Below are positions 1,112 through 10,969 of a DNA stretch of 64,000 nt, piece after piece. The notes beneath the pieces are model-generated. The model had not been told where the DNA came from. It worked only from the letters and a program-made list of their open reading frames with translations, and did not search any database. This DNA comes from Candidatus Heimdallarchaeum aukensis (GTDB lineage: Archaea > Asgardarchaeota > Heimdallarchaeia > Heimdallarchaeales > Heimdallarchaeaceae): positions 192,001 to 256,000 of the forward strand of contig CP084166.1 in the NCBI GenBank assembly GCA_021513695.1, in the 5' to 3' direction. A program made the translations under genes and the position numbers. The number at the start of each line of letters is the position of its first letter. The first letter of the stretch is position 1.

Positions 1112-1690
1112 TTATTTACTTGGTAAAAATGATTCAAGAGAATGGTTCTTTATATGTTGAATTATAGAATTCTTTGTATCAAAAGTTTCTTTACAAATTT
1201 TACATACGAAAATCTTCTTTTCTTGAATATAATCCCCAAAATTTATAACTATAAATTCTGATTTGAAACTTGATTCTTTTTCTAGATTATTCACAACATT
1301 ACTACAGATTTCATTTTTTGTATTTAATAGGTCAGGTGGGAAATCTAAAGTATCTTCATTTTCTTTAAGATAATCTTCGACTTTTTTTGAGAAATCTCTG
1401 GGAAAATACCATTTATTACCCTTTCTCTCAACAAATTTTTTTAGAAAGTAGTTTATTCTGTTATATAAATTAACCCATGAAGGATGCTGTGAAGCCCCCA
1501 GAAATGATTCAAATTGGCCATATGCTATATATCGAGCAATCGTAGATGTGTCTATTGCTACTGGTTGCCAATCTGCTTTATTCTCAAAATGCTTGAATGA
1601 TTCCACTGCGTCAACTATAGATTTTAGCAAATTTACCTTATCGATATCAAAATTCGCTTCTGTATGTGATGACCCTTTTTCACTAATCAT
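1112..1690 (-). CDS. Small protein with a C-terminal classical C2H2 zinc finger
   Basis: The C-terminus reads FVCKICKETFDTKNSIIQHIKNH, which is C-x2-C-x12-H-x3-H, the canonical C2H2 spacing. The ORF is 192 aa. Confidence 0.55.
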   Translation of the reverse strand: MISEKGSSHTEANFDIDKVNLLKSIVDAVESFKHFENKADWQPVAIDTSTIARYIAYGQFESFLGASQHPSWVNLYNRINYFLKKFVERKGNKWYFPRDFSKKVEDYLKENEDTLDFPPDLLNTKNEICSNVVNNLEKESSFKSEFIVINFGDYIQEKKIFVCKICKETFDTKNSIIQHIKNHSLESFLPSK

Positions 1691-2374: not shown

Positions 2375-3571
2375 TTGTTTAGCATGCTTAAGAAAGAGAC
2401 TTATAAAGATATGATTACTGCAAATCAAGCTGTTGCATTAGCTGTTGTTCGTGCAAAACCCAAAGTTATTGCTGCTTATCCTATATCTCCTCAAACTACA
2501 ATTGTTGAATATCTCGCTGATTATTGTGCTTCAGGTGATCTTGATGCAGAATATGTTAGAGTAGAGTCTGAGCATAGTGCAATGACTGTTGTAGCTGCTG
2601 CACAAGGAACAGGTGTTAGAACTTTTACAACCACTGCATCTCAAGGTTTAGCTTATATGCATGAAGTAGTGGCTGCTACTGGAGGAATGCGATTACCTGT
2701 TGTAATGTTTGTAGCTAATCGCACACTCATGAGTCCTGGGGGTATTTGGCCTGAATATTCAGATACCATGCCTGAAAGAGACACAGCTTGGCTTCAAGTT
2801 TATGTTGAAGATAATCAAGAAGTTTTTGATATGATTATTCAAGCTTATAAAATAGCTGAACATAAAGATGTGTTATTACCAATAATGGTCTGTGGAGATG
2901 GATATATTCTTACTCATACATCAGACACTGTTGAAATTTTAGGAGAGAAAGAAGTAGATGAATTTCTTCCACAATATAAATCAGAGCATGCATATTTGGA
3001 TATTGAAAGACCTTTGGCACAAGGAATAATTGTTCCACCTGCATACCATATGGAAGCAAAATATCAAATGCATATGGCTATGAGAAAAGCAAAAAAAGTA
3101 ATCCAAGAAGTTAATGAGGAATTTTCAAAGAAATTCGGTCGAGATTACGGGGGGTTAATAGATACTTATAAGCTAGAAGACGCAGAAATAGCATTAACAG
3201 TTGTAGGTTCAACTACAGGAACAGCAAGAACAGTAGTTGACGAATTAAGAAAAAAAGGGGTAAAAATAGGTCTTCTTAAAATTAGATTCTTTAGACCTTT
3301 TCCATTTGAAGAAATAAGAAAAGCTTTGGAAAATATGAAAGCTATAGGTGTTTTTGATAGAAGCTTATCTTATGGTTCTACAGGACAATTTTTTGGTGAA
3401 GTTAGAAACGCGTTATATGGGTTAAATATTCCTATAGTTAATTTTATTGCAGGATTAGGTGGGAGAGACATTAGAGAAGAAGATATTCGAACAATGATTA
3501 ACAAAATCGATGAACTAAAGGACAAAGAACAACCAGAAGATCCTATAATATTCGTTAATACTCGATTTTGA
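2375..3571 (+). CDS. porA: 2-oxoacid (pyruvate):ferredoxin oxidoreductase alpha subunit
   Basis: The 398 aa product begins ...ITANQAVALAVVRAKPKVIAAYPISPQT..., typical of a PorA/KorA N-terminus. The length fits a stand-alone alpha subunit. A T-rich stretch follows the stop. Confidence 0.8.
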   Translation: MFSMLKKETYKDMITANQAVALAVVRAKPKVIAAYPISPQTTIVEYLADYCASGDLDAEYVRVESEHSAMTVVAAAQGTGVRTFTTTASQGLAYMHEVVAATGGMRLPVVMFVANRTLMSPGGIWPEYSDTMPERDTAWLQVYVEDNQEVFDMIIQAYKIAEHKDVLLPIMVCGDGYILTHTSDTVEILGEKEVDEFLPQYKSEHAYLDIERPLAQGIIVPPAYHMEAKYQMHMAMRKAKKVIQEVNEEFSKKFGRDYGGLIDTYKLEDAEIALTVVGSTTGTARTVVDELRKKGVKIGLLKIRFFRPFPFEEIRKALENMKAIGVFDRSLSYGSTGQFFGEVRNALYGLNIPIVNFIAGLGGRDIREEDIRTMINKIDELKDKEQPEDPIIFVNTRF

Positions 3572-3805
3572 GTATACAATTTTTTTATTTCTCTTTTTTT
3601 TAAGAAAACTAGAAAAAGTGAAGCTAAAAACTTTAAGTTTAATTATTTTTTATCTAGAGACGCTATTACCTTCTATATCATTTACAAGCAGTTAGATTAG
3701 CATTTAGATTCACACTGTTTATAGGATTAACTTAGAGGTTTTTTTCCTTGATTTTAGACTAAAGTTTAAATACTAGTTCTTTTATAACTAGTACTTGAAC
3801 CTTTT

Positions 3806-3812
3806 AGGAGGT
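3806..3812 (+). promoter_or_regulatory. Shine-Dalgarno-like AGGAGGT, 8 nt upstream of the histone-fold gene start
   Basis: aggaggttagaactATG. Confidence 0.45.
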
Positions 3813-3819
3813 TAGAACT

Positions 3820-4026
3820 ATGGCGAAAAAGAAGAAAGCTGCACCAAAAGCTGATATCCTTATCGTCAAATCAAAAGTTCGAGAATATGTTAAGAGCCTT
3901 GGAGAATTCCAAATGAGTTCAGACTTTATTGAAGCTCTAAATACTGAAGTAGCTGGATTAATCAAATCAGCTGCTGAGAGAACAAAGGCTAACAACAGAA
4001 AGACACTCTCTGCAAGAGACGTATAA
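3820..4026 (+). CDS. Archaeal histone-fold protein with a lysine-rich N-terminal tail
   Basis: The tail MAKKKKAAPKAD precedes ...SSDFIEALNTEVAGLIKSAAERTKANNRKTLSARDV. This matches the histone alpha2-L2 pattern (...AKHAGRKTIKAEDI...). A strong SD lies upstream. Helix alpha3 looks short. Confidence 0.6.
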   Translation: MAKKKKAAPKADILIVKSKVREYVKSLGEFQMSSDFIEALNTEVAGLIKSAAERTKANNRKTLSARDV

Positions 4027-4055: not shown

Positions 4056-4130
4056 GAAGACTCAACTAGGTTGAATCTTCCTTAAGTATAAAAATAATTA
4101 TATCTTTTTATTTCTTTCTATTTTTTTGTC
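4056..4130 (+). terminator. Hairpin (gaagactcaac-tag-gttgaatcttc) followed by T-tracts, downstream of the histone-fold gene
   Basis: The stem is 11 bp with one mismatch. It is followed by tttttatttctttctattttttt. Confidence 0.3.
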
Positions 4131-6408: not shown

Positions 6409-9393
6409 CTACTTCCATATTATTTTTTTATTGACTTTGAAGATTTTATTCTGTTTTTCTCTTTCCTGAGTTATATTTTCTTTTACAATTTCTCCAAGAG
6501 CAACTATCCTGTTCCAAATAACAACTAATTGACTAATTTCATCTGTTTTTAAAAATGAAAGACCTATAACTATTAATTGTTTTAATGCTTTTTCGTTTAT
6601 TTTTTGATTGTTTTTAATTATTGTTTCATCTTCTTTTAATTCTTTAATCGAGATTCCAATATTAGCATTTTGAAGCATGAGCATGGAATCTAATACCGTT
6701 TCTACTTTTGGATTGATTCTTGGTAACAATAGTCGAAAATAATTACCTATTCTTTGGCTAAATGTAACATATTTTATTTCTTCACTGATTAAGTTCAATG
6801 CGTCATTTTTCTTCTTCAGGGCTATTTTATACTCATTTAATAAAATTAAACTTTGAAATACATCAGATAGTAATTCTGTGAAAAGTTTCTTTTCAAAATC
6901 AATGTATCCCTTACGGAAAAACCTTTTTTCATTATTCTTATATTTTATAACTCCATAACTATCGTTCACTACAGGAATGATAAAAGTTCTATCTTCAAAT
7001 TTTAAGTCATAAGATAATAATTCAACGTTGTCATATTTTTCTCCAATTTTCCACTGCTCATAAGTTTTTTCTCTTTGCAACGCCTTATTTATCATGATTT
7101 GGTTAAATTTACTGATATCTTTTGCTATCTCACTTATATCTTCAGAGATTGAAGGAAAAATATGTCCTATTCCTTTTTCTATTATTCCATCTTCTGACAA
7201 TCCATAAAAGTGTTCATGTTTTCGTTGTATATTAAAAAAGGTGCTAAGACCGAAAGGTAAACTAGGCTCAATTACAGCTATATCCCATATGTTGCTTATT
7301 TTTTTGTCATCTGTTTCATCTACTCTATATGCTCTTCCTTTAGTTTGAATAACAGTTTGATAAGCAGATACTGAAGTTAAATCAATAAGTGTATTTAGTT
7401 TAACAGAGTCCCACCCTTCTCCTAATATGTTTCTTGGCCCAATCAGACATTTAGTTATCCCCTTCTCAAGTAAATAAGTAAAAAGAAGAGTGTATATTCC
7501 TGTTCTCCAATCAAATCCCTCTCCTATAATTTGGACAATTTTCTCGTTTTCTGTTCTTTTTATTGACAATTTAAAATCAAATTTGAAATTCTCTTTCCAT
7601 TTTTCACTTTCTTTTAGTATTTGATTAGCTATGTCTCTATCTGTAAGTATTGATGAAGAAGAAATGGAAACTGGATCTAACTGGTTGGTTTTAGTATTTG
7701 AAATAAGCTTTTCTAAGATACTTAACGACAGATTTTCTGTAGTAAAATCATAAATTATTGCTGAACGTAATTTATCCTTTAAATATGAGAATTCATACTC
7801 TAGAATCTCAACAATAGCATTTATTTTTGATTTACTTGAATTAAGAAAACTAAAAGTTACTTCTCTCTCTTTCATTAAATTATCTACATTCTCTAGTTTC
7901 TCAAAAAATCGACCTAATTCGTTATAATAATTTAAAGCTTTTTTAGAATTGAATTTCTGTTTTCTAAGATAATTCCAATAATAGGCGTGAAGAATAATAA
8001 ATAATTCATTTAATGTAAATTTTTCTTGATCAATTGCTTCTTGATTTTCAAAAATCAGATAAATTTTGTTTACTAAATCATCATTCTTGTATCGTTTTAT
8101 TATGTTTAGATGATTATTTTCATATTCTTCTTTAAGAAATTCAATAGGGTCTTTTAGATTTTTAGATTTTAATGAAGAAAAGAGCTTTCTCAAAGGTTTG
8201 AATTTTTTTTCTATTTCCTTTCTTTCTTCCTCTTGAGGATAGACAAAGTATAACAAATCTTGATAAGGGGCTATGTTTTTTTGTTTTACCGCTGCTGGAG
8301 TAGGTATTTCGATATCAACAGAACCAAAAAGTAATTCGTATATTCCTACTTCTTCATCCTCGACATTCACATCAGTTGGAGGAGTTGCAGTTAAACCCAA
8401 AATGAATGGGATGTTAAATTCTTCAATAAGATAGTTTACAATATATGCCCAAATTGATGTAAGATGATGACACTCATCTAAGATTATTAGACCTATTCCT
8501 TTGTTTTTTAGGGTGTCAATTATCTCTAATGTGTTTTTGTGTAGAATGTCTTTAATCTTTATATCTGAAAAATTAAACTCTCCTTTTATTATCTTATGCC
8601 TTATTTTGTTGATATATTCATTTATTTTTGCTTTATACTCTTCATAATTACTTTTTTTTAAAGATTCAATAAATTCTTTATTTTCATTTTTTTCTTTTAA
8701 CCACATTTTTTCAGCAAAATGCTGTAACATCTCTTCTTCTTGAGAATAAACAGAAAAACGTTGGTAGGTCATTACTGTAATTGGAGCTCTTGATTTAGGG
8801 TCTGTATTTCCAATCATCGTGTTAATGATATTGTTTTCTTTGTCAAGAAACAATTTAATTTTATCTATCCATTGGTCCTGAGTAGAAAAATTTGGTGTTA
8901 GCACTAGAGTATTTTTTGCTATTTGTTTTGCTATTTCAAGACCTACAATAGTTTTTCCTGAACCAGGAGGAGAAACAACATAAAACTTCCTTTCTACTGT
9001 GCTAATTTTTTGTTCAAATTTTTCTAAAATAAGTTTTTGAGATTGCCAAAATTCTCCTCGAAAATACATGTTTGTTAATAAAGAAGGATCAATTTGTCCA
9101 TCTCTGTCTAAATCAAATCTGTATTCACGGAAAGAATTTATTGAAATTTTGATAAAATTATTTATTTTCTCTACTTTTTTACAGTGGGGACAATATTCAT
9201 TTATTTTATACCATTGCTCTAAATGTTCAGAATGAAAAAGACTTCTACAATAAGGGCATAGATAGACTATATCTTCTTTATCAAAAGGTGTAAAGCATAT
9301 CTCACATTTAACAATTTCAGCTCTGCAATTTTCACAGAAATTCCAATCTAACTCAATTTTTGAGTTACAGTTTGTACAACTGTAATGATTCAT
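6409..9393 (-). CDS. Superfamily-2 (DExH/ResIII-like) helicase with N-terminal multi-Cys zinc-ribbon module
   Basis: The N-terminus carries repeated C-x2-C pairs (CTNC, CENC, CEIC, CPYC, CPHC). Walker A is VVSPPGSGKT. Motif II is ILDECHH, motif III is LTATPP and motif VI is QTKGRAYR. A long insert lies between the RecA lobes. Confidence 0.7.
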   Translation of the reverse strand: MNHYSCTNCNSKIELDWNFCENCRAEIVKCEICFTPFDKEDIVYLCPYCRSLFHSEHLEQWYKINEYCPHCKKVEKINNFIKISINSFREYRFDLDRDGQIDPSLLTNMYFRGEFWQSQKLILEKFEQKISTVERKFYVVSPPGSGKTIVGLEIAKQIAKNTLVLTPNFSTQDQWIDKIKLFLDKENNIINTMIGNTDPKSRAPITVMTYQRFSVYSQEEEMLQHFAEKMWLKEKNENKEFIESLKKSNYEEYKAKINEYINKIRHKIIKGEFNFSDIKIKDILHKNTLEIIDTLKNKGIGLIILDECHHLTSIWAYIVNYLIEEFNIPFILGLTATPPTDVNVEDEEVGIYELLFGSVDIEIPTPAAVKQKNIAPYQDLLYFVYPQEEERKEIEKKFKPLRKLFSSLKSKNLKDPIEFLKEEYENNHLNIIKRYKNDDLVNKIYLIFENQEAIDQEKFTLNELFIILHAYYWNYLRKQKFNSKKALNYYNELGRFFEKLENVDNLMKEREVTFSFLNSSKSKINAIVEILEYEFSYLKDKLRSAIIYDFTTENLSLSILEKLISNTKTNQLDPVSISSSSILTDRDIANQILKESEKWKENFKFDFKLSIKRTENEKIVQIIGEGFDWRTGIYTLLFTYLLEKGITKCLIGPRNILGEGWDSVKLNTLIDLTSVSAYQTVIQTKGRAYRVDETDDKKISNIWDIAVIEPSLPFGLSTFFNIQRKHEHFYGLSEDGIIEKGIGHIFPSISEDISEIAKDISKFNQIMINKALQREKTYEQWKIGEKYDNVELLSYDLKFEDRTFIIPVVNDSYGVIKYKNNEKRFFRKGYIDFEKKLFTELLSDVFQSLILLNEYKIALKKKNDALNLISEEIKYVTFSQRIGNYFRLLLPRINPKVETVLDSMLMLQNANIGISIKELKEDETIIKNNQKINEKALKQLIVIGLSFLKTDEISQLVVIWNRIVALGEIVKENITQEREKQNKIFKVNKKIIWK

Positions 9394-10045: not shown

Positions 10046-10969
10046 CTAATCATTTTTTATGCTTTCGTCTAGGTTGGTAGCTTTTTCTAATCCTCTATAT
10101 ATCTTCCATCTTCTATCGATATATTCTTTAAGTTTTTCAACTTGTTCAGGGGTTATATTTTTGAATCGTCCTTGTTTTGACAAAAATTCTTCTAATCCTG
10201 TAAATTTAGGTTTTCTGTTAATTTTCACTCTTCCATTTTCATATTCAATTAGTAGCCAATAACCTGATTCAACAGCTTCTTTTGCTAATTGGGGACCTAA
10301 ATGAGTTGGTACTTTCCATCCTGGAGTGCAGATAGACAAAACTTCTATATATCTAAATCCCTTCATCTTCTTTGCTTTTTCTATTTTATTGATAAAATCT
10401 TGAATGTAAGCTGTTGAAGCAGTAGCTACATAGGTAGCTTCATGTGCAATAAGTATCCTTGGAATATCTTTTGGAAACCATTCATTTCCTTTCGATTTTC
10501 CTTTAACAGGAGTTGTTGTAGACCACGAACCATAAGGAGTCAATCCTGAAGCTTGAATTCCTGTATTCTCATATGCTTGATTGTTGTAACAAATATACAA
10601 TATATTTTCATCTCTTTGAGCTGCTCCAGATAGAGCTTGTAGACCTATATCTGCCGTACCTCCATCTCCAGCCATCCCCAAGACTACTATATCTTCCTTG
10701 TTTTGAGCTTTTAAAGCTCTTGAGATCCCAGTAACAGTTGAAGCGGTATTCGCAAACTGTAGATGGAAATAAGGAACATCCCAGTTAAGATTAGGAAAAG
10801 TTCCTCCAAAAACACTTAGACAACAAGGGGGAACACTCACAATTGTTTTTTTCCCTAAAATACGCATTACGTTAATAGCGATATTTGACGCCATACAACC
10901 TGCACAAGCACTGTCTCCGCTTACAAACTCTGCTCTATCTGGAAGATCTTTTAATCTCATAGCTTTCAC
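10046..10969 (-). CDS. porB: 2-oxoacid:ferredoxin oxidoreductase beta subunit (TPP-binding)
   Basis: GMAGDGGTADIG is the TPP-binding GDG motif. Cys residues near the N-terminus are of the kind that bind the proximal FeS cluster. The product is 307 aa. Confidence 0.8.
   Translation of the reverse strand: MKAMRLKDLPDRAEFVSGDSACAGCMASNIAINVMRILGKKTIVSVPPCCLSVFGGTFPNLNWDVPYFHLQFANTASTVTGISRALKAQNKEDIVVLGMAGDGGTADIGLQALSGAAQRDENILYICYNNQAYENTGIQASGLTPYGSWSTTTPVKGKSKGNEWFPKDIPRILIAHEATYVATASTAYIQDFINKIEKAKKMKGFRYIEVLSICTPGWKVPTHLGPQLAKEAVESGYWLLIEYENGRVKINRKPKFTGLEEFLSKQGRFKNITPEQVEKLKEYIDRRWKIYRGLEKATNLDESIKND

What the first reader, a model, noticed from the sequence alone, without database searches (positions are those of the whole stretch)
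3820..4026. Histone-fold protein with eukaryote-like lysine-rich N-terminal tail
The 68 aa product starts MAKKKKAAPKAD and then shows histone alpha1-L1-alpha2-L2 features (…AERTKANNRKTLSARDV). N-terminal tails on archaeal histones are reported mainly from Asgard lineages. Helix alpha3 appears truncated (ends …ARDV), which would alter dimer and tetramer contacts.
Basis: partly seen in the sequence, partly recalled or inferred. Interest (0 to 1): 0.5.

Follow-up and report, generated by a model that had tools for sequence, protein, structure and literature searches.

The report
Face-to-face archaeal histone, short basic tail
This small gene of the Asgard archaeon Candidatus Heimdallarchaeum aukensis encodes a "face-to-face" histone, a known type with a naturally shortened last helix; its stop codon is genuine and its lysine-rich tail is short and common in related archaea, so the finding is real but ordinary.

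Summary
The 68-aa ORF at 3820-4026 (+) is real, exactly as quoted. It is protein K9W45_00750 of Ca. Heimdallarchaeum aukensis.

It is a histone-fold protein, but not a damaged or eukaryote-like one. It belongs to the published alpha3-truncated "face-to-face" (FtF) histone family. Its closest solved structures are HTkC (9F2C), HLp (9QT0) and HBb (8CMP). The 95%-identical orthologue from Ca. H. endolithica (A0A9Y1FPJ9) already appears as the Asgard FtF representative in Hu et al. 2025.

The early stop is the family hallmark. All 28 aligned homologues and all 80 genome loci end at the same residue. That residue lies 14 positions after an invariant arginine (R54), which in HTkC salt-bridges to the C-terminal carboxylate to close a ring-shaped tetramer. 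N58, R60, T62 and D67 are also invariant.

The tail (MAKKKKAAPKAD, 5 Lys) is genuinely translated. It is only about 12 residues long, varies from 0 to about 20 residues among relatives, and 38 of 43 other Asgard FtF genes start MAKK.

The most likely function is wrapping and compacting DNA without sequence preference, as a homotetramer. This is inferred, not shown.

Novelty is low. The only mildly new point is that short basic tails are the rule on Asgard FtF histones.

The parts
3820..4026 (+). Complete coding sequence (68 codons plus TAA) of the face-to-face histone; = K9W45_00750 / UJG41003.1 / UniProt A0A9Y1BL11 of Ca. Heimdallarchaeum aukensis
   Evidence: 100% identity; third-codon-position bias
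3820..3855 (+). N-terminal basic tail, residues 1-12 (MAKKKKAAPKAD): 5 Lys, 1 Asp, predicted disordered
   Evidence: Residues 1-4 have pLDDT<50 and the block 1-10 averages 50. The tail raises net charge from +3 to +7. Its length varies from 0 to about 20 aa among homologues.
3868..3900 (+). Helix alpha1 (residues 17-27, KSKVREYVKSL). K17, S18, K19 and R21 align with the HTkC DNA-contact residues K7, S8, K9 and K11.
   Evidence: Model; alignment; HTkC-DNA contacts; invariance
3925..3990 (+). Helix alpha2 (residues 36-57, 22 residues). It includes R54 (3979-3981), the counterpart of HTkC R45, the arginine needed for tetramer formation.
3991..4023 (+). Loop L2 and the alpha3 stub (residues 58-68, NNRKTLSARDV). 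N58 is the dimer-dimer contact; R60, T62 and D67 form the RxTxxxxD motif; K61 and T62 are DNA contacts; V68 is the C-terminus, 14 residues after R54.
4024..4026 (+). TAA stop codon: genuine and conserved in position, not premature
   Evidence: All 28 sequences of A1 and all 80 genome loci end at this column. An identical protein occurs in independent assemblies. There is no downstream alpha3 in any frame.
3806..3811 (+). Shine-Dalgarno-like AGGAGG, 8 nt upstream of the ATG
   Evidence: Read; identical in Ca. H. endolithica; function inferred
3765..3772 (+). TTTAAATA, a match to the archaeal TATA-box consensus, 48 nt upstream of the ATG. Its role as a promoter is an inference; such words are frequent in DNA of 30% G+C.
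   Evidence: the last ~120 nt before the ATG differ at only 2 positions between the two Heimdallarchaeum species
4105..4127 (+). Oligo-T runs (T5 ... T7) about 80-100 nt after the stop, the kind of signal that terminates archaeal transcription (inferred)
   Evidence: the T-run is conserved in the more distant L006 lineage

Best explanation
The gene encodes a face-to-face (FtF) histone, a member of the alpha3-truncated histone family. By analogy with the solved relatives HTkC and HLp, two chains form a histone-fold dimer. Two dimers then close into a flat ring-shaped tetramer. This closure is possible because the chain ends exactly 14 residues after R54, so the free C-terminal carboxylate of one dimer can salt-bridge to R54 of the other, while N58 contacts R60 across the interface. 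DNA is bound without sequence specificity through the start of helix alpha1 (K17, S18, K19, R21) and loop L2 (K61, T62), and is wrapped around the ring to compact the chromosome. The 12-residue lysine-rich tail emerges right next to the DNA-contacting end of alpha1. It most likely adds electrostatic grip, taking each chain from +3 to +7. The gene stands alone with its own ribosome-binding site, a TATA-like box and downstream T-runs, as expected for an independently expressed chromatin protein.

Shown here: the fold, family placement, conservation of the key residues and of the stop position, and the reality of the tail.

Inferred: tetramer formation, DNA wrapping, the role of the tail and the expression level.
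For: Sequence: HTkC (9F2C) E=1e-9, HLp (9QT0) 4e-8, HBb 3e-7. With the family profile these become 1.8e-18, 2.6e-16 and 1.5e-13.

Structure: the AF2 model has mean pLDDT 84.6. Its best Foldseek match is HTkC, TM 0.88, rmsd 1.1 A, 47% identity.

FtF signature residues (Schwab 2024; HTkC R45A becomes a dimer): R54, N58, R60, T62 and D67 are invariant in 28 homologues. The pattern R-x3-N-x-R-x-T-x4-D-x-stop is present in 80 of 80 genome loci and 66 of 77 single-fold representatives. HBb, which is only a dimer, has S and D at the R54 and N58 columns and runs past the FtF C-terminus.

DNA contacts: the HTkC DNA-contact residues K7, S8, K9, K11, K52 and T53 align with conserved K17, S18, K19, R21, K61 and T62.

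Prior publication: the orthologue A0A9Y1FPJ9 (95% identical) is listed as the Asgard FtF histone in Hu et al. 2025.

Abundance in a relative: a Heimdallarchaeia MAG (KowaHeim1) lacks nucleosomal histones and has abundant alpha3-truncated histones in its proteome.

Context: the gene is monocistronic, and the POR - histone - sfsA arrangement is conserved.
Against: No multimer could be predicted or measured here, so the tetramer is inferred from residues only. HTkC's minor-groove arginine in loop L1 (R22) is Q31 here and N/Q in relatives, although HBb and HLp also lack an arginine at that column. Whether Ca. H. aukensis lacks nucleosomal histones was not established. The 64-kb window has no second histone, and a word-based protein search returned no Heimdallarchaeum nucleosomal histone, but neither test covers the whole genome.
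Confidence: 0.8

Rival explanations
1. It acts only as a dimer that bends DNA, like the bacterial histone HBb (Bd0055), and does not form a DNA-wrapping tetramer.
For: The fold is equally close to HBb (TM 0.84-0.87). Schwab 2024 notes that dimer-type and FtF histones are near neighbours in sequence space.
Against: HBb-type histones lack the two tetramer residues. In the alignment HBb has S and D where this protein has invariant R54 and N58, and HBb extends past the FtF C-terminus. The 'bacterial dimer' group is described as exclusive to bacteria. The C-terminus lies exactly at R+14 in all 80 loci.
Confidence: 0.1
2. It is a nucleosomal (HMfB-type or eukaryote-like tailed) histone whose alpha3 was lost through a premature stop, sequencing error or pseudogenisation.
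For: Taken alone, the sequence ends where alpha3 of HMfB would begin, and it carries the RKTxxxxD motif shared with nucleosomal histones.
Against: The stop position is identical in 28 of 28 homologues and 80 of 80 genome loci from many phyla. The identical protein occurs on 8 independent contigs. Nothing alpha3-like follows the stop in any frame, and the downstream sequence is not conserved as coding. Helix alpha2 is also shortened (22 residues), as in the family definition. Substitutions show purifying selection.
Confidence: 0.01
3. It is a histone-fold protein with a job other than general chromatin packaging, for example a specific transcription regulator (as proposed for low-abundance haloarchaeal histones) or a non-DNA-binding DUF1931-type protein, which is the label databases give it.
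For: NCBI and UniProt call it 'DUF1931 domain-containing' or 'hypothetical'. Schwab 2024 cautions that not all prokaryotic histone-fold proteins need be genome organisers. An 8-bp palindrome overlaps the putative promoter, hinting at regulation of the gene itself.
Against: Pfam DUF1931 matches only 3 of 28 family members, with a best E of 0.012. DUF1931 proteins are two-fold pseudodimers that lack the DNA-binding residues, whereas this is a single fold with those residues conserved. Characterised FtF relatives are abundant, compact DNA and matter for growth. Alpha3-truncated histones are abundant in a Heimdallarchaeia proteome.
Confidence: 0.07

Closest known systems
FtF histone of Ca. Heimdallarchaeum endolithica (UniProt A0A9Y1FPJ9, K9W46_00960), shown as the Asgard face-to-face representative in Fig. 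1b of Hu et al. 2025 (PMC12701072)
   Same: 95% identical orthologue in the same gene neighbourhood (POR alpha - histone - sfsA - RING/helicase). The last ~120 nt upstream of the ATG differ at only 2 positions. Same C-terminus.
   Different: Its tail is one lysine shorter and has Ser for Pro (MAKKKTASKAD). It has K49Q in the fold.
HTkC of Thermococcus kodakarensis (PDB 9F2C; face-to-face histone; Schwab 2024 and the HTkC preprint of 2025)
   Same: Same fold (rmsd 1.1 A, 47% identity). The tetramer arginine is conserved (R45 = R54). The chain ends 14 residues after it. The alpha1 K-S-K and L2 R-K-T DNA contacts are conserved.
   Different: HTkC has no basic tail. It has E49 and H58 where this protein has the family-typical N58 and D67. 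It has an L1 arginine (R22) where this protein has Q31. HTkC coexists with the nucleosomal histones HTkA and HTkB.
HLp of Leptospira perolatii (PDB 9QT0-9QT2; bacterial face-to-face histone)
   Same: Best profile hit (1.8e-18), 42% identity in the fold. The R and N of the tetramer interface are conserved. It has a short disordered N-terminal extension (first 6-7 residues invisible in crystals). It wraps DNA as a stable tetramer.
   Different: It is bacterial and falls in a separate sequence cluster from archaeal FtF histones. The tail sequence is unrelated.
HBb / Bd0055 of Bdellovibrio bacteriovorus (PDB 8CMP, 8FVX; 'bacterial dimer' histone)
   Same: Alpha3-truncated histone fold; 35-36% identity; RKTxxxD motif; alpha1 lysines.
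   Different: It lacks the tetramer residues (S and D at the R54 and N58 columns) and has 5 more C-terminal residues. It is a dimer that bends DNA. Membership was tested here and not met.
Tailed nucleosomal histones of Asgard archaea (HLoB, HMpB; Heimdall LC3 A0A1Q9NJR1) and eukaryotic H3/H4
   Same: Histone-fold superfamily; lysine-rich disordered N-terminus.
   Different: Those have a full-length alpha3 and build (hyper)nucleosomes. This one has a 4-residue alpha3 stub and a shorter alpha2. Its match to H4 or HHoB is only E about 0.1, and its tail is about 12 residues.

Membership tests
Histone-fold superfamily | Helix-loop-long helix-loop architecture recognisable by profile or fold comparison | tested here: met
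   Pfam PF00808 alone is sub-threshold (14 bits against 21.4), but 17 of 28 family members hit it. The family profile reaches H2B, NF-YB, M. kandleri histone, Asgard HHoB and H4 at E 0.04-0.2, after strong hits to the alpha3-truncated histones. Foldseek lists nucleosome H4/H2B chains at probability 0.9-0.99.
Alpha3-truncated histones (Schwab et al. 2024) | Alpha3 reduced to 3-4 residues | tested here: met
   The chain ends at ...T62-L-S-A-R-D-V68. The model has no helix after residue 57. All homologues end at the same column.
Alpha3-truncated histones (Schwab et al. 2024) | Alpha2 about 4-5 residues shorter than in nucleosomal histones | tested here: met
   Alpha2 spans residues 36-57, 22 residues. 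The comparison with HMfB's longer alpha2 rests on the family description.
Face-to-face (FtF) histones | Conserved arginine in alpha2 (HTkC R45, H. volcanii R41) that salt-bridges to the opposing C-terminal carboxylate | tested here: met
   R54 aligns with HTkC R45 and is invariant in 28 sequences.
Face-to-face (FtF) histones | Chain terminates 14 residues after that arginine, so the carboxylate reaches it | tested here: met
   V68 = R54+14. The same holds in 80 of 80 genome loci and 66 of 77 single-fold representatives.
Face-to-face (FtF) histones | [quoted passage not shown] | tested here: met
   N58, R60, T62 and D67 are all invariant; the definition is.
Face-to-face (FtF) histones | Closed ring-shaped homotetramer (the feature by which the category was defined) | not testable with these tools
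   Only single-chain prediction was available and no interface output is given. The tetramer is inferred from the residues above.
Bacterial dimer histones (HBb type) | Absence of the two tetramer residues; bacterial host | tested here: not met
   Both residues are present and invariant, and the organism is an Asgard archaeon.
Nucleosomal archaeal / eukaryote-like tailed histones | Full alpha3 (~10 residues) forming the four-helix-bundle interface for (hyper)nucleosome stacking | tested here: not met
   There is no alpha3 in the ORF or downstream of it in any frame. HMfB against the ORF gives E=3.9.
DUF1931 (PF09123) pseudodimeric histone-like proteins (the database label of this protein) | Two histone folds in one chain; DNA-binding residues absent | tested here: not met
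   This is a single 56-residue fold. PF09123 gives no hit for this protein at E<=10, and 3 of 28 relatives hit with a best E of 0.012. The DNA-contact residues are conserved.

The most novel reading that the evidence does not exclude
Short lysine-rich 'MAKK...' tails are a lineage-wide feature of Asgard face-to-face histones. They are seen here on 38 of 43 non-Heimdall Asgard loci and on Heimdallarchaeaceae and Kariarchaeaceae proteins, but not on Aenigmatarchaeota ones. The reading is that these tails are acetylated and deacetylated like the tails of Asgard nucleosomal histones. If so, Heimdallarchaeaceae, which may lack nucleosomal histones, would run tail-based chromatin regulation on a non-nucleosomal histone ring. 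Published surveys say archaeal FtF histones 'generally lack tails', and one large survey scores related genomes as having no histones at all.
Probability: 0.15. Interest if true: 0.5.

Novelty: already known. Interest (0 to 1): 0.15.

Why it matters
The protein itself matters little, because its family, its truncation, its presence in Asgard archaea and even its sister-species orthologue are already published.

Two practical points do follow.

1. Standard histone models miss this gene. Pfam PF00808 and NCBIfam are both sub-threshold, and databases label it 'hypothetical' or 'DUF1931'. As a result, a recent archaeal histone census lists related Heimdallarchaeaceae and Kariarchaeaceae genomes as having no histone, or only one non-canonical histone. 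Claims about which Asgard lineages have histone-based chromatin depend on recognising this family.

2. The short basic tail appears to be the rule on Asgard face-to-face histones, not an oddity of this gene. That could be tested for post-translational modification in existing Asgard proteomes.

Tried and rejected
1. Premature stop or lost alpha3. I translated all three frames downstream of the stop in the window and six relatives. Nothing alpha3-like or conserved was found.

2. A second histone nearby that could partner with this one. phmmer of HMfB, HTkC, H4 and the protein itself against all 577 open frames of the window found only this ORF.

3. RNA elements. The window has no tRNA and no Rfam hit. 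The 3'UTR hairpin (4056-4080) and the 5' palindrome (3771-3793) fold no better than shuffled sequence, with z of -0.95 and -1.08. I therefore make no claim of a histone-mRNA-like stem-loop.

4. The sigma-70 promoter and intrinsic-terminator scan is not informative for an archaeon and found nothing above background.

5. Does the organism lack nucleosomal histones? A protein search with a Heimdallarchaeales nucleosomal histone returned 52 hits, none named Heimdallarchaeum or Heimdallarchaeaceae. The search is word-limited and not genome-targeted, so the result is inconclusive. The supplement of PMC13260811 is cut in storage and does not list the Heimdallarchaeum genomes.

6. A linker-fused tetramer prediction was considered and dropped.

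7. The antisense ORF 3804..3995 (63 aa) was rejected as a gene, because substitutions follow the codon phase of the + strand ORF.

Full report
**1.
Positions 3820-4026 (+) carry an ATG-started ORF of 68 codons ending in TAA. The open frame starts only four codons before the ATG. AGGAGG sits 8 nt upstream. The next in-frame start is Met32, inside the fold, so the lysine-rich N-terminus (MAKKKKAAPKAD) is genuinely part of the protein. The window has 30% G+C.

**2. Source organism.**
The protein is 100% identical to K9W45_00750 (UJG41003.1, UniProt A0A9Y1BL11) of Candidatus Heimdallarchaeum aukensis, on a 3.08-Mb contig. So the window comes from that Asgard archaeon.

**3. It is a real, selected gene.**
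- The identical protein is encoded on eight contigs from independent samples and assemblers.
- Against 12 orthologues, nucleotide differences in the fold fall 168/90/317 on codon positions 1/2/3. Against the sister species, 9 of 10 differences are at third positions.
- The antisense ORF 3804..3995 is therefore not the gene.

**4. What it is.**
- Curated general models barely see it. Pfam PF00808 gives E=0.062 and 14 bits against a cut-off of 21.4. NCBIfam 'archaea_histone' gives 17 bits against 50.
- Direct comparison with solved structures is clear: HTkC of Thermococcus kodakarensis (9F2C) 1e-9, HLp of Leptospira perolatii (9QT0) 4e-8, HBb/Bd0055 of Bdellovibrio (8CMP/8FVX) 3e-7.
- With a profile of 28 homologues these become 1.8e-18, 2.6e-16 and 1.5e-13. 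They are followed by HmvA at 6e-5, then H2B, NF-YB, the M. kandleri histone, Asgard HHoB and H4 at E 0.04-0.2.
- An AlphaFold2 model (mean pLDDT 84.6) has residues 1-4 disordered (pLDDT<50), helix 17-27, helix 36-57 and no further helix.
- Foldseek ranks HTkC first (TM 0.88, rmsd 1.1 A, 47% identity), then HBb and HLp, then nucleosomal H4/H2B chains.
The protein is in the histone-fold superfamily, specifically among the alpha3-truncated histones defined by Schwab et al. 2024.

**5. The truncated alpha3 is the family hallmark, not damage.**
- Schwab et al. define face-to-face (FtF) histones by a ring-shaped tetramer. The tetramer is held by an alpha2 arginine (H. volcanii R41, HTkC R45), an asparagine four residues later, and the RxTxxxxD motif. 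The arginine salt-bridges to the C-terminal carboxylate of the opposing dimer.
- HTkC R45A is a dimer in SEC-MALS.
- In the window protein the corresponding residues are R54, N58, R60, T62 and D67. The chain ends at V68, exactly R54+14.
- All five residues are invariant in the 28-sequence alignment, and every sequence ends at the same column.
- A scan of one genome per prokaryotic species returned 80 loci, all with R-x3-N-x-R-x-T-x4-D-x-stop. 66 of 77 single-fold cluster representatives share the pattern.
- No alpha3-like sequence follows the stop in any frame, in the window or in six relatives.
- By contrast HBb, a DNA-bending dimer, has Ser and Asp at the R54 and N58 columns and runs on past the FtF C-terminus. 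I therefore file the protein as FtF, not as an HBb-type 'bacterial dimer'.
- The database label 'DUF1931 domain-containing protein' is imprecise. DUF1931 proteins are two-fold pseudodimers lacking DNA-binding residues, and PF09123 does not match this protein.

**6. It is already in the literature.**
- The 95%-identical orthologue P0002 is UniProt A0A9Y1FPJ9 of Ca. Heimdallarchaeum endolithica. Hu et al. 2025 list that accession in their Fig. 1b alignment alongside the archaeal FtF histones HTkC and D4GZE0.
- FtF histones are stated to occur across Euryarchaea, Asgard, DPANN, TACK and Thermoplasmatota.
- A 2026 preprint reports that a Heimdallarchaeia MAG (KowaHeim1, Kariarchaeaceae) lacks nucleosomal histones and has abundant alpha3-truncated histones in its proteome.

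**7. The tail.**
- It is about 12 residues with five lysines and raises the net charge per chain from +3 to +7.
- Among close relatives it ranges from absent (P0024, where a stop lies four codons upstream of the start; also P0019) to about 20 residues (P0026, and P0070 from a Kariarchaeaceae MAG). Its sequence is not conserved beyond being basic.
- In the genome scan, 38 of 43 loci from other Asgard groups (Promethearchaeota/Loki, Hermod-, Thor-, Odin-, Hodarchaeota) start MAKK with 8-14-residue extensions. Nine Aenigmatarchaeota loci have 3-6 residues and at most one basic residue.
- The tail is thus ordinary for Asgard FtF histones and at the lysine-rich end of their range. It is much shorter than the tails discussed for eukaryotic and Asgard nucleosomal histones.
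- Schwab et al. say archaeal FtF histones 'generally lack tails' while bacterial ones often have positively charged tails. The Asgard pattern is a small refinement of that statement.

**8. How it most likely works (inferred from HTkC and HLp).**
- HTkC contacts DNA through K7, S8, K9, K11, R22, R51, K52, T53 and Y55. It wraps DNA around the tetramer and compacts it about twice as much as hypernucleosomes. Its deletion slows growth.
- The window protein conserves K17, S18, K19, R21, K61 and T62 at the aligned positions. It has Q31 in place of the L1 arginine, and HBb and HLp also lack an arginine there.
- The tail leaves the fold immediately before the DNA-contacting start of alpha1, so extra electrostatic contact with DNA is the simplest role.
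- The gene stands alone between a pyruvate:ferredoxin oxidoreductase alpha-subunit gene and sfsA. This arrangement is kept in Ca. H. endolithica and a more distant Heimdallarchaeaceae lineage.
- Upstream are a TATA-like TTTAAATA (3765-3772) and the Shine-Dalgarno-like site. The last ~120 nt upstream of the ATG differ at only 2 positions between the two Heimdallarchaeum species. T5 and T7 runs follow about 80-100 nt after the stop. These signals are read from the sequence, and their function is inferred.

**9. What remains open.**
- The tetramer itself could not be predicted or measured with the tools available.
- Whether this is the organism's only histone is not settled. The window has no other. 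The complete Ca. H. endolithica chromosome gave only one locus among the 80 best, where other genomes gave two. A search with a Heimdallarchaeales nucleosomal histone returned no Heimdallarchaeum protein. None of these covers the whole genome.
- A large archaeal histone census lists one Heimdallarchaeaceae genome with a single 112-aa non-canonical histone-fold protein, another with none, and a Kariarchaeum genome with none. This shows both that nucleosomal histones are scarce there and that its pipeline misses the FtF family.

**10. Verdict.**
It is a histone fold with a basic tail and a truncated alpha3. It is not eukaryote-like, the stop is not premature, and it is not unusual for its lineage.
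- It is a known kind of protein whose near-identical orthologue is already published, so interest is low.

Noticed in passing
Not in the window: proteins P0032-P0040, P0042, P0043 and others from the representative search: About 50 of the 150 best hits to the family profile are 115-135-aa proteins with two alpha3-truncated histone folds in tandem. Each half carries the NGRKTxxxxD ending. These look like natural 'face-to-face doublets'. The three looked up (P0032-P0034) carry no name in any source, and the main text of Schwab 2024 does not mention such doublets.
   Followed up: partly
window 6409..9393 (-): A 994-aa protein with an N-terminal RING-like zinc finger (zf-RING_2, 27.2 bits, just under the 27.3 cut-off) fused to a ResIII/DEAD superfamily-2 helicase. 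It is a conserved neighbour of the histone-sfsA pair in Ca. H. endolithica too. A RING plus helicase fusion recalls some eukaryotic chromatin and DNA-repair enzymes. This was not examined further.
   Followed up: no
window 1112..1690 (-): A 192-aa protein ending in a single C2H2-type zinc finger (FVCKICKETFDTKNSIIQHIKNH). The Pfam zf-C2H2_4 hit is sub-threshold, 23.8 bits against 27.
   Followed up: no
window 3771..3793 (+): An 8-bp perfect inverted repeat, TACTAGTT-N7-AACTAGTA, lies between the TATA-like box and the ribosome-binding site of the histone gene and is identical in Ca. H. endolithica. It could be an operator for a repressor. As an RNA hairpin it is no better than shuffled sequence (z = -1.08).
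   Followed up: partly
window 4056..4080 (+): An imperfect 11-bp hairpin (GAAGACTCAAC-TAG-GTTGAATCTTC) sits in the 3' untranslated region of the histone gene, kept in Ca. H. endolithica with a loop change. It is not statistically distinguishable from shuffles (z = -0.95) and is not seen in a more distant lineage.
   Followed up: partly
window 2375..3571 (+) and 10046..10969 (-); compare L006 1484..3573: The oxidoreductase alpha-subunit gene (POR_N/PFOR_II) and a TPP-binding beta-subunit-like gene are adjacent in a related Heimdallarchaeaceae lineage. In Ca. H. aukensis and Ca. H. endolithica they lie 6.5 kb apart on opposite strands, with the histone, sfsA and two large genes between them. This suggests a local rearrangement.
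   Followed up: no
Literature: supplement file 3 of PMC13260811: A 2026 census of archaeal histones lists Heimdallarchaeaceae (UBA460) and Kariarchaeum genomes with 'No histones' or a single 112-aa non-canonical protein. Yet genome scans here find FtF histone genes throughout Heimdallarchaeota MAGs. The FtF family evidently escapes that pipeline.
   Followed up: partly
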